DNA from: Octopus vulgaris
Lineage: Eukaryota
Reading direction: 5' to 3'
Assembly (NCBI GenBank): GCA_951406725.2
Contig: OX597834.1
Location: 21,762,001 to 21,826,000, forward strand
DNA length: 64,000 nucleotides
The notes under the pieces: generated by a model
Told to the model about the DNA's origin: nothing
The model's database searches: none
Seen by the model: only the letters and a program-made list of their open reading frames with translations
In this document: positions 6,135 to 56,339 of the stretch, piece after piece
Position numbering within the stretch: position 1 is the first letter of the stretch
How the letters are laid out: every line of letters starts with the position of its first letter
Program-made: the position numbers and the translations under genes

Positions 6135-6136
<2 letters not shown>

Positions 6137-6260
6137 GTGCATAGCTCAGTGGTTAGAGCATCGGACTCACAATCATGAGGTAATGAGTTCAATTCCCGGA
6201 GCAGGTTGCATGTTGTGTTCTTGAGCAAGACCTTTATTTCATGTTGCTCCAGTTTGACTG
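6135..6260 (+). mobile_element. CORE-like tRNA SINE family C, 5' part
   Basis: tagctcagtggttagagca A-box, gagttcaattcc B-box, then gttgtgttcttgagcaagac CORE-like segment. Confidence 0.8.
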
Positions 6261-17978: not shown

Positions 17979-18820
17979 GTATATATATCCATATATATGT
18001 GTGTGTGTGTGAATAAATAGATAAATGTTTTAAGTAGATGAGGATCCAATGAAATTTGACAAAATTCTGAAAATATAAGGAAGCTTAGAAAGTAGAAAGC
18101 AAAATTCTTATGGAAAGAATTTTGGAATCAACAAGAATATTGGCAGAAAGAATTAAAGAGAAAATACCAGGAAAGATGAGATGACGGAATTGGTTTACAT
18201 GACGTTAAATAAAGAAATTTTAGATTATATTTGGTTTTGGTTTAAAAATTGTATTTTATTTTTATTCATAGTTTTATTTTATTTAATTTTTTTAATTTGT
18301 TTTTTTGTTTATACAAATCCTTTAACTGTGTTTGGAAATGATTTAAATGTAATATCATCGCTTTAGGAGGAGGAAAAGATGAAGATGGTATTGTTGATGA
18401 CAAATTGATGGTGATAACAAAGACACTGATGATGACGATGATGATGGTAACAGTGGTGGTAATGGTGGTGGTTTTTCCCTAACATCGATGGCACTGATGG
18501 TGTCTGTGGTGATGATGATGATGTTGAGAATAACAATGGTAGTGGTAATGATGAAGATGATGATGATGATGATTATTATTATCATTATCATTGTCATCAT
18601 CATGGTTGCTTTGAAGCGCATGATAACGAATATGATACTGATGAGGATGTTGATAGTAACACTGAAGTAAACTGATATTGTTAATTGTGGTAGAAGTGGT
18701 GATGTGGTGGTGGTGGATGTTTTGGTGGTGGCAGTAGTGATGATGGTGTTTGTGGTGGTTAATGGAAGTGATATTCATTTTTAAATTTGATACATTTCAG
18801 AATAACTTCTTTGAAACAAA

Positions 18821-19320
18821 TCCCACCCCATCAACACAAAGCCCACCCCATCAACACAAAGCCCACCCCATCAACACAAAGCCCACACCATCAACACAAA
18901 GCCCATACCATCAACACAAAGCCCACCCCATCAACACAAAGCCCATACCATCAACACAAAGCCCATACCATCAACACAAAGCCCATACCATCAGCACAAA
19001 GCCCACCCCATCAACACAAAGCCCATACCATCAGCACAAAGCCCATACCATCAACACAAAGCCCATACCATCAACACAAAGCCTACACCATCAACACAAA
19101 GCCCATACCATCAACACAAAGCCCATACCATCAACACAAAGCCCATACCATCAACACAAAGCCCACCCCATCAACACAAAGCCTACACCATCAACACAAA
19201 GCCCATACCATCAACACAAAGCCCATACCATCAGCACAAAGCCCATACCATCAACACAAAGCCCATACCATCAGCACAAAGCCCATACCATCAACACAAA
19301 ACTCACCCCATCAACACAAA
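18821..19320. repeat. Minisatellite, 25 copies of a 20-bp unit (gcccataccatcaacacaaa)
   Basis: Exact 20-bp period visible across lines 18841-19261, with only a few variant positions. Confidence 0.97.
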
Positions 19321-19467
19321 GCACTCATTACCCTCTGTAAAGTGGTCAGTGTTAGGAAAGGCATCCATCTGTAGAAACCAAATCAAAGCCATCAGTGGAG
19401 CTTGGTACAGTCCTCTGGTTTGACAGATCTTACCAAGCCACTCCACCCATGCCAAATTGGAAAACAG
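19318..19467 (+). mobile_element. Degenerate RTE 3'UTR-family tail
   Basis: ctctgtaaagtggtcagtgttaggaaaggcatccatctgtagaaacc...acccatgccaaattggaaaacag is homologous to 52545-52690. Confidence 0.7.
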
Positions 19468-22004: not shown

Positions 22005-23030
22005 GCAGGCTGTCAATATCCCTATATATGTGTGTGTGTGAGTGTGTGTATACAAACACACACACATGTACATATATACATATGTACTTGTATACATCTG
22101 TGTATGCATGTTATATACATCAATATATATTAATACACTCCGACATATACACAATTCGTCTAAATACTGTTTGCAATGAAATTCGATATTGTAAACACAT
22201 GCTCGCAGACAGACAACACAAACAACATCGGAACACTTTCGCATCAGTAAATGTTTAGTAAAATATTAATTAATTAATTAATTAAAGTAAGCTCACCACC
22301 TCCACAATATTTACACAATACGCTTCCTCTGACTACTCTTCTTTATTGTGTCTGTTCCCCACCACCCCCACCACCACCACCACCACCACTAACCACTGCC
22401 TTGGTTGGCACCACTGAAAGGAGGTTTCCCTCTCGTTCTTGTCGCTTCGTTTAATTAAGTAGATAACGAAGTGAAATAAGATTTTTAAATTAAATATCGC
22501 TGCCTTTAATCACTTCCATATCTGTTTCTGCTCTTAACTTATCTCTTCGGAACATCTCAGCAATGACAATGGCAATGATGATGACGATGATGATGACAAT
22601 GATGATGAAGATGATGGTGGTGGTGGTGGCGATGACAATGACGCCAGCAGCGATGACAATGTATGATCTGTTGCTTTGCTTTGCCTTTCCGGTGTTTACG
22701 TTCCCACTAATCTCGTCATCATTGTCATCATCTTTATCATCGTCATCGTCATCGTTATTATTATGAATGCTTTTCTTATTTCCCCACATTATTTTATTTT
22801 TCTACATGAGTGTCTACCTATATCTCTCGCTCTCTTTACATACATACATACATACATATATACATACATGCATGCATACATACATACATATATACATACA
22901 TACATACATACATACATACATACATACAAACATACATACATATATACATAGCTGCCAATCACTGGGGACCATTGAACAATCACATAAATGTGATATATAA
23001 ATATATACATACATATACATATATATACAC

Positions 23031-23097
<67 letters not shown>

Positions 23098-23116
23098 CAT
23101 ATACATATATATATAT

Positions 23117-23175
<59 letters not shown>

Positions 23176-23289
23176 TATAGGCAGATAGGTAGATAATATA
23201 CATATATACATGTGTATGTCATATATATATATACACACACACACATTCATTTGTGTGTATACGTATGTGTATGATTATGTGTGTGTTAG

Positions 23290-23500
23290 TGAAGACACTT
23301 GGCTCAGTGGTTAGAGCATCAGGTTTACAATTAGGAGATTATGAGTTTGATTCCTGGACCAGGCTGTGTTCTGTTCTTAAGCAAAACGCTTTATTTCACA
23401 TTGCTTTAGTTCACTCAGCTGTAGCAATGAGTTTCAATGTCACTGGTACCAAGCTGTATCGGCCCCTTTGCCTTTTCCTTGGACTACATCAGAGGCATTG
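23290..23500 (+). mobile_element. CORE-like SINE family C
   Basis: ggctcagtggttagagcatc...tttatttcacattgctttagttcactcagctgtag...ggtaccaagctgtatcggcccctttg. Confidence 0.8.
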
Positions 23501-23764
23501 ATTACCCTTTTATATATATATTGGATTGTTTTCAAGTATTTTGGTTTTTCTGGGAGTCCCTTTTTAAAGAAGAAGAAATAGCTAACGTTTTTTGGCTGCT
23601 ATTTCTAAACTTCGGTATGTGGTAAGGCAAATCTTTGCTGAACCCTAATTATTAAGTATTACTTAAGTTTACCATGAAATGGTCCTTTTTTCATGCCGAA
23701 TTCTACTTGGTGAAATTATTGATTACTTCTTAATTAATTAATTTTACCCTTTGTTTTATATATA

Positions 23765-23869
<105 letters not shown>

Positions 23870-23871
23870 AT

Positions 23872-24073
23872 TACGGAGATGTACTCGCATAGCAAGTGAT
23901 TTGATCTGAGATCGTGTGCTGAAACGAAAACAATTGCAGCGTGGAAGGTGTTTGTAAGCCATTTAAGAAACACACAAAAGCCATTCAATTCACTTCAACA
24001 TTTAAGTTTAATTTGTCAAAATATTTTCGTCGCTAAAATCCGCGACCTGTTCACTGACAAAAATCCGTGCTGC
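23872..24073 (-). mobile_element. ~200-bp short element carrying a hammerhead-like motif (PLE pseudo-LTR-like), copy 1
   Basis: Near-identical, with the same ends, to 27570-27773; flanked by (AT)n. Confidence 0.85.
24012..24061 (-). ncRNA. Minimal type I hammerhead-ribozyme-like motif, G3-C8 core variant
   Basis: Minus strand: tttgtca-GTGAACA-g-gtcgc-ggatttta-gcgac-GAAA-atat-TT-tgacaaa. Perfect 7-bp stem I, perfect 5-bp stem II, palindrome AATATT, NUH triplet UUU. Confidence 0.7.
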
Positions 24074-24087
24074 ATATATATCTATAT

Positions 24088-24351
24088 ATCATCATCCTCA
24101 TCATCATCTCCGTTTAATATCCACTTTCCTTGCTGGCATGTGTTGAATGGTTTGACTAAGGATTGGCAAGCTAGGGGGCTGCACCAAGCTCCAATCTGAT
24201 CTAGCAAGGTTTCTACACCTGGATGTCCTTCCTAACGCCAACCACTCCAAGAGTATAGTGTGTGCTTTTTACATGCCACTGGCACAGGGGCCAGTCTGTC
24301 GACACTGGCATCACCCACGCTTGAATGGTGATTTTTACATGCCACTGGTGC

Positions 24352-24352
<1 letters not shown>
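24088..24352 (-). mobile_element. RTE 3'UTR-family tail with (GAT)n end
   Basis: Reverse complement of gtggttggcgttaggaagg.catccag.tgtagaaac, with internal tggcatgtaaaaa repeats. Confidence 0.8.
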
Positions 24353-24389
<37 letters not shown>

Positions 24390-24542
24390 AGATAGGGGTT
24401 GAAAATTCAACCCACCATGGGATAACATATATCCAATAATAAAGTATTGATTGGGTATCATCTGATAGTTGATGTTTTATTGATTTAAGTATGTTTCTCC
24501 ATTTTCTAATTTTGTAATATATATAAATATATATATATATAT

Positions 24543-24738
24543 ATTGGGATGGAATGGCTAGAGTTGGAGGCAAGGGGGGTGGTGCTAAATGAGCGGAATT
24601 ATTCAATGGTCCTTCAACATGCCAGTTCAATGTAAAACATTGGTTTTGAACCAATTGTGCTTCTGAACATGCCAATCACTGGGGACCATTGAACAATCAC
24701 GCACACACATACACACACACATATATATATATTTGTAA

Positions 24739-24772
<34 letters not shown>

Positions 24773-25043
24773 ATAAATAAAAAGTGATTCATTGGTTCAT
24801 TAACCAGAGTTTCCCTCTCTCACACACACACACACACAAACACATACACATACATACACACATTTATATGTGATTGTTCAAATGTCCCCAGTGAATGGCA
24901 TGTTCAGAAGTACAATTGGTATGGAACCAGTGTTTTATATTGCACTGGCATGTTGAGGGACCCATTAATAATTCCACTCATTTAGCCACCCTCCTGTCCC
25001 CCCACCCCATCCCCTCCTGTCATTCCATTCCATTCCATTCCAA
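24543..25043. repeat. Diverged inverted pair of a ~160-bp repeat (24543-24700 vs 24868-25043)
   Basis: gctaaatgagcggaattatt...cttctgaacatgccaatcactggggaccattgaacaatcac mirrors gtgattgttcaaatgtccccagtgaatggcatgttcagaag...aataattccactcatttagc. A third fragment lies at 22953-22985. Confidence 0.85.
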
Positions 25044-25850
25044 TAGTGACTGCCACACCTCTTTCATTAGTTACATTGTCAACACACAAAATGGCATGAT
25101 GGGAAGATAATAATAATTACAGTAGCAATGAAGAGGATGATGATCATGATGATGATGATGATGACTGATGATGATGATGACAATGGTGATGGTCGGAGGG
25201 GAAGCACTTGGTTTGGAGTATGACGATGATGATGATGATGATGATGATGGTCGGTGGGGAGGCGCTTGGTTTGGAGTATGATGATGATGATGATGGTGGT
25301 GATAGGAGTATTGTGGTGATTAGGGTTGATGATGGGTGATAATATCAATAGTGATAGCAGTTAGGAGGAGGAGGAGGAGGAGTGAATGGAGGGTGGGTTT
25401 TGTGTATGGTGGTAGTGGTGGTGGTTGAAGGCTTTGGTGTTGGGTATGATAATGATGGTGATGTTGTTGATGACCCTGATGACCACAACAATGATGACAA
25501 AATGACCAATAATGATGATGGCAATGGTTTCTTTCATCTTTGGTGGAAGGTAAAATATCTACTCATTGTAAGTAGTCATGGTGGTGGTGATGGCGGTGGT
25601 GGTGGTGGTGGTGATGGTGGTGGTGGTGGTGGTAGTAGTGGTGGTGGTGGTTATATGACTGATAGTAGTAGCAGAAACAGCAGCAGTTGTTGTTGTTGTA
25701 GTTGTTGTTGTTGTACCTGCATCCAAGCCAACAATTACGTGTCATCAGTTCCAACAGGGCAGGGCCAAGCCAGGCCAGTCGCATCATGCAAGCATCAAGA
25801 TGATTGGTTTGCTCAAGCGTCTGATTTAACACACAGCTGAATGAAAGACC

Positions 25851-25881
<31 letters not shown>

Positions 25882-25989
25882 GATGCATGTGAGAATGAGG
25901 ACATTCAAAGACTTACTTAAAGGAAATTTGAAGACAAAAAAATGGCTTTAATGCATACAAATGGATATCATTAACAAATAATTGACACA

Positions 25990-26160
25990 GGCGCAGGAGT
26001 GGCTGTGTGGTAAGTAGCTTGCTAACCAACCACATGGTTCTGGGTTCAGTGCGACTGTGTGGCATCTTGGGCAAGTGTCTTCTGCTATAGCCCCGGGCCG
26101 ACCAATGCCTTGTGAGTGGATTTGGTAGACGGAAACTGAAAGAAGCCTGTCGTATATATG

Positions 26161-26191
<31 letters not shown>

Positions 26192-26400
26192 ATGTGTGTG
26201 TGTTTGTCCCCCTAGCATTGCTTGACAACCGATGCTGGTGTGTTTACGTCCCCGTCACTTAGCGGTTCGGCAAAAGAGACCAATAGAATAAGTACTGGGC
26301 TTACAAAGAATAAGTCCCGGGGTCGATTTGATCGACTTAAAGGCAGGTGCTCCAGCATGGCCGCAGTCAAATGACTGAAACAAGTAAAAGAGTAAATGAG
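25990..26400 (+). mobile_element. tRNA-headed SINE family A, full length, young
   Basis: ggcgcaggagtggctgtgtggtaag A-box, gggttcagt B-box-like, cttgggcaagtgtctt, internal (AT)(GT) microsatellite, tail (aagagta)n; CpGs retained. Confidence 0.9.
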
Positions 26401-26477
26401 TTAAGAGAGACGTTTTGGAAATCAAATCGTTTCTGTTGATGGTGAACACTTCGTGACAACAAACCCGAAACAAGCCT

Positions 26478-27850
26478 TTTAACTCTTTCGCTATCATAAT
26501 TTTGTTGAAATTCCCTGTTTTTGTTTCATTTAATTTTGGAAATAGTGAAGAATTAAGTAAAATAGCTTTACCGTTATTAATCATTAAACATAACTTTTAA
26601 TGAAATAATCTAAGCACGAAAGGGTTAAAGTTATCTAAACTGGCCCTTATTTCAATTTAATTTGAAAATTATGAAGAATTTAGTAAAATGACTTTATCGT
26701 TAATAATCTGGTGTTTGGAACATAAATTAACCAGAAATTATGAATGAAGGTGTTAATTCAGATCCCTTTAATACTTTGGCATTTAAATCAGCCCTACCTG
26801 GTCAAATTATTCCAGGTGTTTTATGTTGAAATTGGTCAAATCTGGCCTCTCACTCCAACCCTACAATGTTATTCTAAAAATAAACAGTCACCTCTTCGAA
26901 ATCTCAAAGTTACAAGAAAATTTATGATTAATTAAAATCAAGATGAATTAGTAAACATTACTTTTAACGGAATAATCTAAGCACGAAAGGGTTTAAGTTA
27001 TCTAAATTGGCCCTTATTTCAATTTAATTTGAAAATTATGAAGGATTTAGTAAAATGACTTTATCGTTAATAATCTGGTGTCTGGAACATAAATGAACCT
27101 GTAATTAAGAATGAAGGTTTTTTTATTTTGATTACTTTAATACATGAAGTTGGTATCATAGAACCAGATGTAGTCTCAGGTAGATTGATATCCAAAGGGT
27201 TAACAAACTTCTAAATTGGCCAGCAGGAAACAAGGAAGTCTGGTACAAATGTCTGGCATTCTATGAAAGAGAGAAAAGGATCCTGTTAACTTCTGTTTAA
27301 TCCTTTAGTTACCATATTTGTGTTTCAATTTGGAAAATAATAAAGGACTTAGCAAAATAACTTTTTCATTATTAATCTGAGTTTGGAACATAAATCAACG
27401 TAAAATTTGGATAGAATCTTTTAATTTAGATTACTTTAACTTCTTATGTTACCATATTTTTGTTGAAATATTCTGACTTTGGTTCAATTAATTGTGTGAG
27501 TAACGGAGAATTCAATAAAATAGTCTTGGAGTATAAATTAATATGAAATTTTGATGGAAGCATTTAACCTACGGAGATGTACTTGCATAGCAAATGATTT
27601 GATCTGAGATCGTGTGCTGAAACGAAAACAATTGCAGCGTGGAAGGCGTTCGTAAGCCATTTAAGAAACACACAAAAGCCGTTCGACTCACTTCAACATT
27701 TAAGTTTAATTTGTCAAAATATTTTTGTCACTTTATGACCGCGACCTGTTCATTGACAAAAATCCATGCTGCATCTCTTAGATTACTTGAAAACATGAAA
27801 TTTGTATCCTAGAACTGAAGAGTTGTCCCAGGTGGGTTAGCATCAAAGGG
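26478..27850. mobile_element. Nest of TTAA-flanked MITEs (families M1 and M2) with a local ~370-bp-period duplication
   Basis: Several aagggttaa ends (26620, 26988, 27196); the block 'ataatctaagcacgaaaggg...gtaaaatgactttatcgttaataatctggtgt' is duplicated at ~26605-26730 and ~26972-27098. Confidence 0.75.
27570..27773 (-). mobile_element. ~200-bp hammerhead-bearing short element, copy 2 (decayed), nested in a MITE
   Basis: Homologous to 23872-24073; core reads ATGAACA and GAAA has become AAAA; the GAAA and stem II changes are CpG-type. Confidence 0.85.
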
Positions 27851-28006
27851 GTCGATGATAAACTGTAAATATAACAATCAGAATAAAGGTGTCTTCTCAC
27901 TCCCCATCCCAATCAACGAAACAACAAATGAAGTTCTATCTGTGATTGAACATGTGGACATTTCAATGGTCGTGAAATAATCACATGTGGAGCAACATGT
28001 GGAATT

Positions 28007-28238
28007 TTAACTCTTTGGTGTTCAAATTACTCTGTCAAATATAAAGCTTATTTATTTGTATTGTTTTGAATTAGTCATGTATGGTCCCATAGCTTTGAGA
28101 TTTTGATGGTGTCATTGTCTATTCTTAGGATGACATGACATTGTAGGGTAGGTGTGAAAGGCTAGACCTGGCTAATTTGAACTTAAAACAGGAGGCAAAT
28201 TTGGGCCAGATGAGGTCTGATTAAATGCTAAACGATTA
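28007..28238. mobile_element. TTAA-flanked MITE family M2
   Basis: ttaactctttggtgttca ... taaatgctaaacgattaa imperfect terminal inverted repeats; reverse-oriented homolog at ~26770-26996. Confidence 0.7.
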
Positions 28239-29718
28239 AATATTTTGGGCAAGCATCTTGGAGCCTGAAAGATTGTCACGGTTGAATAGTAGCAGCAACA
28301 GTAGCAGCAGTGAAGGAGCAGCAGCAGTAGTAACAGTAGTAGTAGAGGTAGTGGTGGTGGTGGTGGCAGCGGCGGTGGCGGTGTTGGTAGTGGTGGTGGT
28401 GGTGGTGCTGCTGCTGCTAGTTGTAGTGTTTGTGATAGTAGTATGGGGAATACTTGCATTGAAAATAGTGGTGGAGATAGTAGTGGGGGTAACAGCAGAA
28501 ATGGATGCAGCAGCAGCAGTAGTAGTAGTAGTAGTAGTAATAGTAGTAGTAGTAGTAGTAGAACTATGTGAACCCATAGAAACATTTATGCAAGCTGGCT
28601 TCCCCATTGCCACTTTTCCACAGGAGAAGCAACATGCTGCTTACTCACTGCCCACCACTTCCTTCCCACCCCCTCCCACCACCACCACTCACCACCACCA
28701 CCCACACCTACACCCATCTTTCTTGATATAAACTCCCTTTTAAATGCCTTTCTCCCCTCCCCAAATCCCTCTTTTCTTTTCTGTTCTACCAGTTTTTTCC
28801 TTTTGTCTCGTCTCCCATTAATGTCTCCTCCGACCATCCTTGACTTGTCTCCCCTTGCCTAACGCCCGCCTCCCTCCAACTCTCTCTTCTCTCCTCACCT
28901 CATCATATCCCCATCTTCTTACTCTCCTCTCTGCATTCTTTCTTCTCCTTTAAACACCCTATTTTCTTCTTTTTGTTTTTGCTGTTTTCTTAGTCCCCGG
29001 CCCTTCCTTCCATTCCTTTCCTAGTCACCTGCTCCTTATTTACGATATTTTCTTGTGAGGTAGGGGTCGGCGTGAGGGTAGAATTGGTGATGGCAACATG
29101 GTGATGTAGTGGAATATTTCTTTTTTATTAATATGCTCATATTGTTATTTATGGTTGCCAAACAATTTCTTTCCTCTTCTATATTTTTTTATAGATTTCT
29201 GCATATATATATATATGCATGTATGTGTAAGTATGTATATATATACACAGACACACATAGACATGGTTATATGCATGTGTGTGTGTCTGTATAACATGTT
29301 CCATCCCATCTCCACACCTCACTTTTATCCACCATTAGCTTATCTGATACCATATGTGCATGAGAATATGTGTTTGTATATATATGAGTGTGTGTATATA
29401 TATATATATATATACACATGTATGTATGCACTTGTAAATATGCATGCATGTATATTTATACATATATGTGTGTGTGTATGTGTGTGTGTGTGAGTGTGTG
29501 CTTATGCATGGATATGTATGTGTAGGTTGGTCTGCTTGTTTGTATGTGTGTAAGAAACTTGTGTATACTTTCTGTTTTACTTTTCAATCCAACTATGGCC
29601 CTCCCGCATCAACATCCCTTTAATTTCAATAGATTCCATTCTAGATTATTCGCAACATTTTTTTCTTTCAAATTATATATACACATAAGCATATATAATA
29701 TATATATATATACATATA

Positions 29719-51190: not shown

Positions 51191-51294
51191 AAAAGCATCC
51201 AGATGCAAAACAGTGCATCAGTTATCCTCTAACCCATGCAAGCATGAAAACACAGACATGAAATGAAACAAATGAACAAATAATCTCCAATATA

Positions 51295-51672
51295 GGCGCA
51301 GGAGTGGCTGTGTGGTAAGTAGCTTGCTAACCAACCACACGGTTGCGGGTTCAGTCCCACTGCGTGACATCTTGGGCAAGTGTCTTCTGCTATAGCCCCG
51401 GGCCGACCAATGCCTTGTGAGTGGATTTGGTAGACGGAAACTGAAAGAAGCCTGTCGTATATATGTATATATATATGTATGCGTGTGTTTGTGTGTCTGT
51501 GTTTGTCCCCCTAGCATTGCTTGACAATCGATGCTGGTGTGTTTAGGTCCCCGTCACTTAGCGGTTCGGCAAAAAGAGACCGATAGAATAAGTACTAAAA
51601 GGTGGTGCTCCAGCATGGCCGCAGTCAAATGACTGAAACAAGTAAAAGAGTAAAAGAGAGTAAAGAGAGTAA
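51295..51672 (+). mobile_element. SINE family A, near full length, young
   Basis: Near-identical to 25990-26400, with one internal deletion. Confidence 0.9.
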
Positions 51673-55894: not shown

Positions 55895-56312
55895 CTTTCT
55901 TTTCTTTGTCTCAGTCAGTTGACTGTGGCCATGCTGGAGCACCGCCTTTAGTTGAGCAAATCAACTCCCCAGGAATTTTTCTTTGTAAGCCTAGTGCTTA
56001 TTCTATTGGCCTCTTTTGCCGAACCGCTAAGTTACGGGGACATAAACACACCAGCATCGGTTGTCAAGTGATGTTGGGGGGACAAACACAGACACACAAA
56101 CACACACACACATACCTGCACATATATATATATATATATATGTATATATGACAGGCTTCTTTCAGTTTCCATCTACCAAATCCACTCACAAGGGTTTAGT
56201 CGGCCCGAGGCTATAGTAGAAGACACTTGTCCAAGAAGCCACACAGTGGGACTGAATCTGGAACCATGTGGTTGGTAAGCAAGATACTTAACACACGGCC
56301 ACTCATGCCTGT
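55895..56312 (-). mobile_element. SINE family A, full length
   Basis: Reverse colinear with 25990-26400. Another copy lies at 57325-57705 (+). Confidence 0.88.
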
Positions 56313-56339
56313 GTATCTATTTATATTTAGTCGAGGCAA

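What the first reader, a model, noticed from the sequence alone, without database searches (positions are those of the whole stretch)
23872..24073. 200-bp mobile unit carrying a G3-C8 swapped hammerhead
Seen: minus strand tttgtca GTGAACA g gtcgc ggatttta gcgac GAAA atat TT tgacaaa, with perfect stems I and II. A second copy at 27570-27773 has identical ends, keeps C8, and changes the stem II loop while the stem stays pairable (gtcgc/gtgac). Both substitutions relative to CUGAAGA are transversions, so CpG decay cannot explain them. There is no tRNA head, ORF or obvious TSD. Inference: a non-autonomous solo pseudo-LTR or retrozyme-like unit with a rare natural core variant.
Basis: partly seen in the sequence, partly recalled or inferred. 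Interest (0 to 1): 0.8.

Follow-up and report, generated by a model that had tools for sequence, protein, structure and literature searches.

The report
Swapped-core hammerhead in octopus Penelope stub
This 200-base repeat is the end-piece of an abundant Penelope-type jumping gene, and it carries a predicted self-cutting hammerhead RNA in which two paired core letters have traded places across the whole lineage; that it still cuts is likely but untested.

Summary
The motif is real, but the unit is not an independent element. It is the pseudo-LTR plus 58-nt tail of an autonomous Penelope-like retrotransposon (RT, CX3CxxC linker, GIY-YIG), and its last 91 nt are the first 30 codons of that ORF. 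G3-C8 is the family state: 5,534 of 6,024 exact-context copies, none C3-G8. An older homologous family, 58-70% alike downstream of the motif, keeps G3-C8; sister families with a related stem II keep C3-G8. Inverted insertions mostly pair a 146-nt with a 204-nt arm (50 of 63) and carry TSDs. Many copies begin with an extra G, likely a copied cap, and few begin at the predicted cut, so the templates were uncut RNA. Against activity: about 136 G3-G8 copies, a predicted G3-U17 trap, and a C9 core in the sister family. Window copy 2 is decayed (A3, A12). No natural G3-C8 hammerhead appeared in nine paper searches, but the key survey (Lunse 2017) was not held. The scan noted this motif before, in this genome and two others. 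Verdict: new variant of a known kind; cleavage untested.

The parts
23872..24075 (-). Copy 1: solo pseudo-LTR (unit positions 1-146) plus tail (147-204) of a Penelope-like retrotransposon, young subfamily
   Evidence: 97-99% identical to the other 29 fetched best genomic hits; same unit lies 3' of RT+GIY-YIG ORFs and 5' of the ORF start
24055..24061 (-). Hammerhead stem I, 5' strand (pairs with 24012-24018)
24048..24054 (-). Core positions 3-9, G3 U4 G5 A6 A7 C8 A9 (G3 at 24054, C8 at 24049)
   Evidence: family counts
24047..24047 (-). Extra nucleotide between A9 and G10.1, typical of PLE minimal hammerheads
   Evidence: PMC4209133
24029..24046 (-). Stem II (5 bp, closed by G10.1-C11.1) with an 8-nt loop that differs between subfamilies
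24019..24028 (-). G12 A13 A14 A15.1, palindromic stem III (AAUAUU, too short for a monomer) and U17; predicted cut between 24019 and 24018
   Evidence: the cut site is inferred from hammerhead numbering
24012..24018 (-). Hammerhead stem I, 3' strand
23872..23962 (-). First 30 codons of the element's RT-endonuclease ORF (ATG at 23960-23962)
   Evidence: continues in frame into the RT N-terminus in L140; homologous peptide at the same place in sister family B
23872..23929 (-). 58-nt tail between the two preferred 3' ends (unit positions about 146 and 204), inferred to be the two reverse-transcription start sites
   Evidence: PMC11167929
23757..23871 (.). (TA)n target tract flanking copy 1; a short AT tract continues on the other side from 24076
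27570..27777 (-). Copy 2: same unit, middle-aged subfamily, begins GAG-ATG; core decayed (A3 at 27753, A12 at 27726)

Best explanation
The unit is the pseudo-LTR and tail of an autonomous Neptune/Nematis-type Penelope-like retrotransposon, and its minimal hammerhead has a lineage-wide G3-C8 core pair that likely still supports weak, dimer- or protein-assisted self-cleavage. Shown: the link to an RT+GIY-YIG ORF, the ORF start inside the unit, two fixed 3' ends, TA-rich targets, inverted arms with TSDs, and the G3-C8 state in the young family and an older homologue. Inferred: the element protein nicks both strands of an AT-rich target about 8-14 bp apart and starts reverse transcription inside the RNA, 33 or 91 nt into the ORF. 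An RNA that starts at the pseudo-LTR can then template only the 200 or so nucleotides back to its 5' end, and the extra G at many 5' ends would be the copied cap. So solo units would be by-products of the element's own uncut mRNA, probably unable to move again. Inferred: the 3-8 pair was swapped once after the split from the sister lineage and has been kept by selection for the active fold; cleavage would act on the RNA (removing the capped 59-nt leader, or cutting tandem read-through transcripts), not make the insertion template.
For: ORF linkage: a 997-aa reading with DKSG, YVDD, CQSNCAVC and VYQIKC...YIGET, Pfam GIY-YIG E 1.6e-5; 17 of 20 loci fetched around RT hits show unit sequence downstream of the RT. 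Core counts: G3-C8 5,534; G3 with other N8 324; other N3 with C8 152; neither 14, none of them C3-G8. In 226 distinct copies (a biased sample) U4, G5, A6, A9, G10.1, A13-A15.1 and U16.1 are 98-100% fixed. Older family C keeps G3-C8 while N7, loop II and stem III differ and the sequence downstream is 58-70% alike in the five copies that reach the tail. A search with positions 3, 7 and 8 left free gave 283 matches; of the first 100, 60 were C-G, 12 G-C, 2 G-G and 2 C-C (counted by hand); 30 fetched loci gave 17 C-G and 4 G-C. On 18 hand-picked rows the 3-8 pair is G-C in 10 and C-G in 7, and stem II pair 4 changes G-C to A-U. 50 of 63 inverted junctions join a 146 arm to a 204 arm; flanks share 8 or more bases in 19 of 21 non-TA pairs against 20 of 420 mismatched controls. 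285 copies start [AGT]GAG-ATG against 246 that read through into the upstream element; 30 consecutive GAG copies share nothing upstream except target or inverted element, and in L287, L288 and L298 the TSD abuts the G. The laboratory C3G/G8C double mutant partly restores cleavage in a PLE hammerhead (PMC11167929).
Against: No cleavage was measured. The swap is one evolutionary event, so the covariation counts are not independent. About 42 of the first 100 G3/non-C8 copies are G3-G8 (about 136 of 324), against 10 of 100 for the mirror change at position 3 (about 15 of 152) (by hand), so mispaired cores may have amplified; they form no clade in a poorly resolved tree. Sister family B has C at position 9 in 94 of the first 100 of 3,684 copies (by hand), which shows that a non-canonical core can spread. 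The predicted fold pairs G3 with U17 and so lengthens stem I, a possible inactive trap. Junctions at the predicted cut are few: 25 against 14, 16 and 14 at neighbouring positions, and 6 of the 25 are explained by stem I microhomology. Hammerhead mutants did not affect insertion in vitro for the anole element. Family C loci were selected by a pattern that required G3 and C8; only one search is free of that bias. The cap reading is indirect.
Confidence: 0.62

Rival explanations
1. Same element, but the swapped motif no longer cuts. The fold or sequence is kept for another use, such as binding the element's protein or acting as a downstream promoter element just after the transcription start.
For: G3-G8 excess; C9 in sister family B; G3-U17 in the predicted fold; no clear peak of 5' ends at the cut; cleavage not needed for insertion in vitro. 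The motif lies about 24-66 nt after the inferred start.
Against: A non-catalytic role does not readily explain why both 3 and 8 changed to a new Watson-Crick pair while U4, G5, A6, A9, G12-A15.1 stayed fixed and N7 and loop II varied between families A and C.
Confidence: 0.27
2. An independent non-autonomous retrozyme-like unit that replicates through short linear or circular RNAs cut out by the hammerhead.
For: Solo units far outnumber ORF-bearing copies (6,024 motif matches, against 83 first-look candidates for an RT stretch). Head-to-tail arrays of the 146-nt unit exist (L147, L043), and animal retrozymes are reported to derive from PLE pseudo-LTRs (bioRxiv 10.64898/2026.07.22.740005).
Against: Ends match the element's start and tail, not the cut site. 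Both window copies are solitary. Solo units are nearly identical to the terminal repeats of ORF-bearing copies (95-98%). In the anole element the RNA needed for insertion extends past the reverse-transcription start, a part that solo units lack.
Confidence: 0.06
3. A neutral relic: two chance transversions became fixed in one master copy of a dispensable motif and were carried along by amplification.
For: One event; amplification copies whatever the master holds; hammerhead-less PLE clades thrive (PMC8557442).
Against: The core is retained between families A and C while flanks diverged by 30-40%; mixed states G-G and C-C are rare in the unbiased search, 4 of 100.
Confidence: 0.05

Closest known systems
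Minimal type I hammerheads of metazoan Penelope-like elements (Cervera and de la Pena 2014, PMC4209133; read: main text parts 1-2 of 4, supplement file 2 parts 1-2 of 3)
   Same: Position in the pseudo-LTR, extra nucleotide after A9, G10.1-C11.1, short palindromic stem III, frequent U17, mostly single dispersed copies.
   Different: Core 3-8 pair is G-C. The 56 representatives in their Figure S3 are C3-G8 apart from two U3-A8 and one U3-G8; none is G3-C8. The inserted base is G, outside their H consensus.
Poseidon element of Anolis carolinensis, PAc (Frangieh et al. 2024, PMC11167929; read: parts 1-2 of 4)
   Same: Two internal reverse-transcription starts inside the ORF that bound the tail, AT-rich target, both strands nicked, uncut RNA as template. 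Both 3' ends here fall at AATT.
   Different: There C3G/G8C is an engineered partial rescue; here it is the natural consensus. The tail is 58 nt rather than the usual 30-40, and the hammerhead lies wholly before the ATG.
Neptune and Nematis clades of endonuclease-bearing PLEs (Craig et al. 2021, PMC8557442; read: passages)
   Same: C-terminal GIY-YIG with CCHH-type residues, CX2-5CxxC linker, (TA)n target bias, inverted 5'-truncated arms.
   Different: Clade not placed by a tree; Neptune against Nematis is not resolved.
Adineta vaga Pen2a/Pen3 insertions (Arkhipova et al. 2013, PMC3846280; read: passages)
   Same: Pseudo-LTR holding the first codons of the ORF, one-sided tail, inverted pseudo-LTR, 8-10 bp TSD, solo pseudo-LTRs.
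   Different: Thousands of copies here; a sharp GAG 5' end is not described in the passages read.
Natural U3-A8 hammerhead variants (Perreault et al. 2011, PMC3088659; read: passages)
   Same: Natural covariation of the 3-8 pair.
   Different: U-A needs two transitions; G-C needs two transversions and reverses the purine and pyrimidine.
Non-LTR retrozymes (bioRxiv 10.64898/2026.07.22.740005; read: parts 1-2 of 5)
   Same: Type I hammerhead, PLE pseudo-LTR origin; some arrays of this family fit the layout.
   Different: Defined by tandem units with a hammerhead in each; the two window copies are solitary stubs 3.5 kb apart.

Membership tests
Endonuclease-bearing Penelope-like element | Single ORF with PLE-type RT and C-terminal GIY-YIG | tested here: met
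   L131, L124, L109; DKSG, YVDD, VYQIKC...YIGET; Pfam GIY-YIG. Pfam RVT_1 was not hit for this family and only weakly for the sister protein (E 0.004).
Endonuclease-bearing Penelope-like element | Pseudo-LTR that includes the ORF start, optional tail, direct or inverted partial tandems | tested here: met
Endonuclease-bearing Penelope-like element | Variable TSD at AT-rich targets | tested here: met
   19 of 21 non-TA inverted pairs, control 20 of 420; not discernible for the two window copies
Neptune/Nematis clades | CX2-5CxxC linker before the GIY-YIG domain | tested here: met
   CQSNCAVC at residue 868
Neptune/Nematis clades | RT phylogeny with reference elements | not testable with these tools
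   no named reference PLE proteins at hand; homologues are almost all unnamed
Minimal type I PLE hammerhead | Stems I and II, extra base after A9, G10.1-C11.1, GAAA, NUH | tested here: met
Minimal type I PLE hammerhead | Core consensus C3 U4 G5 A6 N7 G8 A9 | tested here: not met
   G3 and C8 in 5,534 of 6,024; C3-G8 in none; the 3-8 Watson-Crick pair itself is kept
Minimal type I PLE hammerhead | Palindromic stem III allowing a dimer | tested here: inconclusive
   AAUAUU is self-complementary but forms only -0.2 kcal/mol, and the two-molecule fold did not give the active dimer
Minimal type I PLE hammerhead | Self-cleavage after position 17 | not testable with these tools
   needs a bench assay; genomic 5' ends show no clear peak at the site
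Non-LTR retrozyme | Tandem units each with a complete hammerhead | tested here: not met
   window copies are solitary; met only by separate arrays such as L147
Non-LTR retrozyme | Circular or unit-length RNA | not testable with these tools
   only assembled contigs were available
tRNA-derived SINE | tRNA-like head | tested here: not met
   ARAGORN 0 genes in 23000-28500; no Rfam match

The most novel reading that the evidence does not exclude
A naturally evolved, active G3-C8 hammerhead, fixed in an old octopus PLE lineage together with U17 (which avoids the stronger G3-C17 trap; its C3-G8 sister families mostly carry C17). Because insertions come from capped, uncut RNA, the ribozyme would serve as an off-switch that removes the capped leader from the element's mRNA. 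The swapped and unswapped sister lineages in one genome would then be a natural experiment on what PLE hammerheads are for.
Probability: 0.33. Interest if true: 0.68.

Novelty: new variant of a known kind. Interest (0 to 1): 0.48.

Why it matters
The role of hammerheads in Penelope-like elements is an open question: they cleave poorly in vitro and were dispensable for insertion in the one reconstituted system. A compensatory double transversion at a pair that exists only in the active tertiary fold, kept across diverged families, is comparative evidence that the active fold is under selection. It also shows that searches built on CUGANGA miss whole families. The insertion footprints (146/204 arm pairing, extra 5' G) give genome-scale support for priming on both strands from uncut RNA. 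The element's overall design is already known.

Tried and rejected
Rfam at gathering and E-value thresholds: no hammerhead match. DNA transposon with short terminal inverted repeats: considered from the ends, dropped once the ORF link, variable TSDs and 5' truncations appeared. Spliced first exon as the source of the GAG start: the upstream sequence resembles a branch point and acceptor, but 30 consecutive GAG copies share no upstream exon, so it was ranked below the cap reading; an intron there is not excluded. Cleaved RNA as template: 25 junctions at position 58 against 14, 16 and 14; only the 25 were inspected. G3-G8 copies as one clade or a basal intermediate: scattered in a 52-sequence tree of about 196 columns with little resolution (8 of 69 young and 20 of 46 middle copies sampled, plus all old and all G8 copies). 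Whole-unit folding is no better than shuffles (z -0.51). Expression: no RNA holder listed; four guessed-RNA contig sets cover the unit but cannot show ends or strand. Four further contig sets, labelled as four organisms, hold the unit with no listed variant at positions 3 or 8, but 9 rows were hidden. The window holds no RT-coding part of the element. Lunse et al. 2017 and Przybilski and Hammann 2007 were not held.

Full report
Observation. The minus strand at 24012-24061 holds a minimal type I hammerhead layout: a 7-bp stem I, GTGAACA in place of CTGANGA, one extra G, a 5-bp stem II closed by G10.1-C11.1, GAAA, the palindrome AATATT and U17. It folds better than all 200 shuffles (z -3.92). 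My relaxed descriptor found this one site in the window and none in 40 shuffles of the window. The unit spans 23872-24075 in a (TA)n tract. The second copy (27570-27777, 92% identical) has A3 and A12 and is a decayed member. Rfam and ARAGORN give nothing relevant.

The unit is a large genomic family. The window lies in a 2.8-Gb genome, probably an octopus: the best protein hit is labelled Octopus vulgaris and is 93% identical to a locus of the sister family here. Exact 22-base patterns give whole-genome counts: G3-C8 5,534; G3 with another base at 8, 324; another base at 3 with C8, 152; both changed, 14, none of them C3-G8; total 6,024. Three subfamilies differ in loop II and flanks, with mean divergence from their own majority of 1.3%, 3.6% and 5.1% in a biased sample of 226 distinct copies; G3-C8 is the commonest state in each, only narrowly so in the oldest group, where loci had been picked for lacking C8.

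It belongs to an autonomous Penelope-like element. Copies that read through the 5' end continue into a spacer of about 1.1 kb rich in microsatellites and then into the end of an ORF. Of 20 loci fetched around RT hits, 17 show unit sequence downstream of the RT. One copy gives a 997-aa open reading with DKSG, YVDD, a CX3CxxC linker and a GIY-YIG domain, the make-up described for Neptune and Nematis (PMC8557442, passages). In L140 the unit runs on past position 204: the ATG at unit position 114 opens a frame that continues into the RT N-terminus (that copy has a stop at codon 201). So the last 91 nt of the finding are coding.

Insertion footprints. Copies end at unit position about 146 or about 204 (75 and 137 of 226), both at AATT. 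Of 63 head-to-head inverted junctions, 50 join one arm of each kind. Among the 42 such pairs examined for flanks, 21 lie outside (TA)n, and 19 of these share 8-14 flanking bases (control 20 of 420). This matches the two internal reverse-transcription starts, the tail and the two-strand nicking shown for the anole element (PMC11167929, parts 1-2) and the inverted pseudo-LTR structures of Adineta (PMC3846280, passages). The 5' ends are also sharp: 285 copies start [AGT]GAG-ATG, where the element's own upstream sequence is CAG-ATG (246 read-through copies). In 30 consecutive GAG copies nothing is shared upstream but target or inverted element, and in three the TSD abuts the G. I infer an RNA that starts at the A of TCAGAT, an initiator-like word (recalled consensus), whose cap was copied as G (known for other retroelements; recalled). 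Junctions at the predicted cut are few (25 against 14, 16, 14). The templates were therefore mostly uncut RNA, in line.

Is the swap selected? A sister family B (54% amino-acid identity) has a hammerhead before a homologous ORF start and the same two 3' ends, with C3-G8 and C17. Searching for G3-C8 cores outside family A revealed an older family C with different N7, loop II and stem III; the five copies that reach the tail are 58-70% alike to A downstream of the motif. Those loci were selected for G3 and C8. A search with 3, 7 and 8 free gave 283 matches: of the first 100, 60 C-G (mainly an older relative of B, family D), 12 G-C, 2 G-G, 2 C-C and 24 other states (counted by hand; 17 C-G and 4 G-C among 30 fetched). 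On 18 chosen rows the 3-8 pair is G-C in 10 and C-G in 7, and one stem II pair changes on both sides. This is one swap on one branch, then retention while flanks diverged. G3-C8 families carry U17 (219 of 226 in A); a paper notes that a G3-C8 variant is less active with C17 than with G17 (PMC3884650, passage, data not shown there), which suggests a G3-C17 trap that U17 would weaken. U17 is, however, common in ordinary PLE hammerheads.

Results against activity. G3-G8 copies are about nine times more frequent than the mirror change (about 136 against about 15, extrapolated from the first 100 rows) and form no clade; this is unexplained and may mean that mispaired cores amplified. Family B has C9 in 94 of the first 100 of 3,684 copies. 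The predicted fold pairs G3 with U17. The stem III palindrome is barely stable. G8C alone lowers the rate 100,000-fold and C3G restores it only in part (PMC8495972, passage).

Comparison with what is known. The layout is that of PLE minimal hammerheads (PMC4209133). Their 56 representatives include U3-A8 and U3-G8 but no G3-C8 (supplement file 1 and part 3 of file 2 not seen). Perreault et al. report U3-A8 as the natural covariant (passages). Nine searches showed G3-C8 only as an engineered mutant. A 2026 Octopus vulgaris repeat annotation does not mention hammerheads in its main text. Lunse et al. 2017, the largest survey of PLE hammerheads, and Przybilski and Hammann 2007 were not held, so the claim that the variant is unreported is provisional. 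Earlier notes of this scan describe the same motif in this genome and in two others; one gave the lead to look for related families, which I then tested.

Verdict. Identity as a PLE pseudo-LTR plus tail is close to certain (about 0.97). That the swapped hammerhead still cleaves and is kept for it is about 0.6. New variant of a known kind; interest 0.48.

Noticed in passing
L201-L230 (family B, e.g. L228:890-943 minus): A sister PLE family with 3,684 exact-context copies has a hammerhead with C3-G8 but C at position 9 in 94 of the first 100; A9 survives in a few. Another non-canonical core fixed in an abundant family.
   Followed up: partly
genome-wide, e.g. L231, L241, L242, L244, L256: Excess of G3-G8 copies in family A (about 136), mostly in older subfamilies and not one clade; the 10 bases around G8 equal those of family D, so patchy conversion between families is one untested idea.
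   Followed up: partly
L147:1719-3057, L043, and further sites on contig C28: Head-to-tail arrays of the 146-nt unit separated by (TA)n, each with the G3-C8 motif; a retrozyme-like layout in which dimers could form in cis.
   Followed up: partly
L170, L127, L255: Three different minimal-hammerhead-like motifs with U3-A8 cores.
   Followed up: no
L044, L058, L246, L281; L015, L128, L136, L175; L059; L215: Several other C3-G8 minimal hammerhead families occur in the fetched loci.
   Followed up: no
L109:8271-9363: About 1.1 kb between the ORF stop and the pseudo-LTR is shared between copies yet made largely of (CT)n, (CA)n, (TA)n and (ATAC)n tracts, and ends in a branch-point and acceptor-like sequence.
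   Followed up: partly
L034 and L040, just 3' of the unit: Two insertions on different contigs share the same downstream flank, which resembles part of the element's own spacer; possibly repeated insertion into a related element.
   Followed up: no
window 25970-26409: An interspersed repeat of about 440 bp with several 74-85% copies elsewhere in the window, e.g. 51272-51669 and 55898-56314.
   Followed up: no
window 18716-19435: Tandem array with a 20-bp period.
   Followed up: no
window about 6135-6200: A tRNA-like SINE head directly after a (TA)n tract (seen).
   Followed up: no
L108:3427-5865 and L091 minus strand: ORF pieces of other RT and GIY-YIG elements lie next to family A insertions, consistent with shared (TA)n targets.
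   Followed up: no
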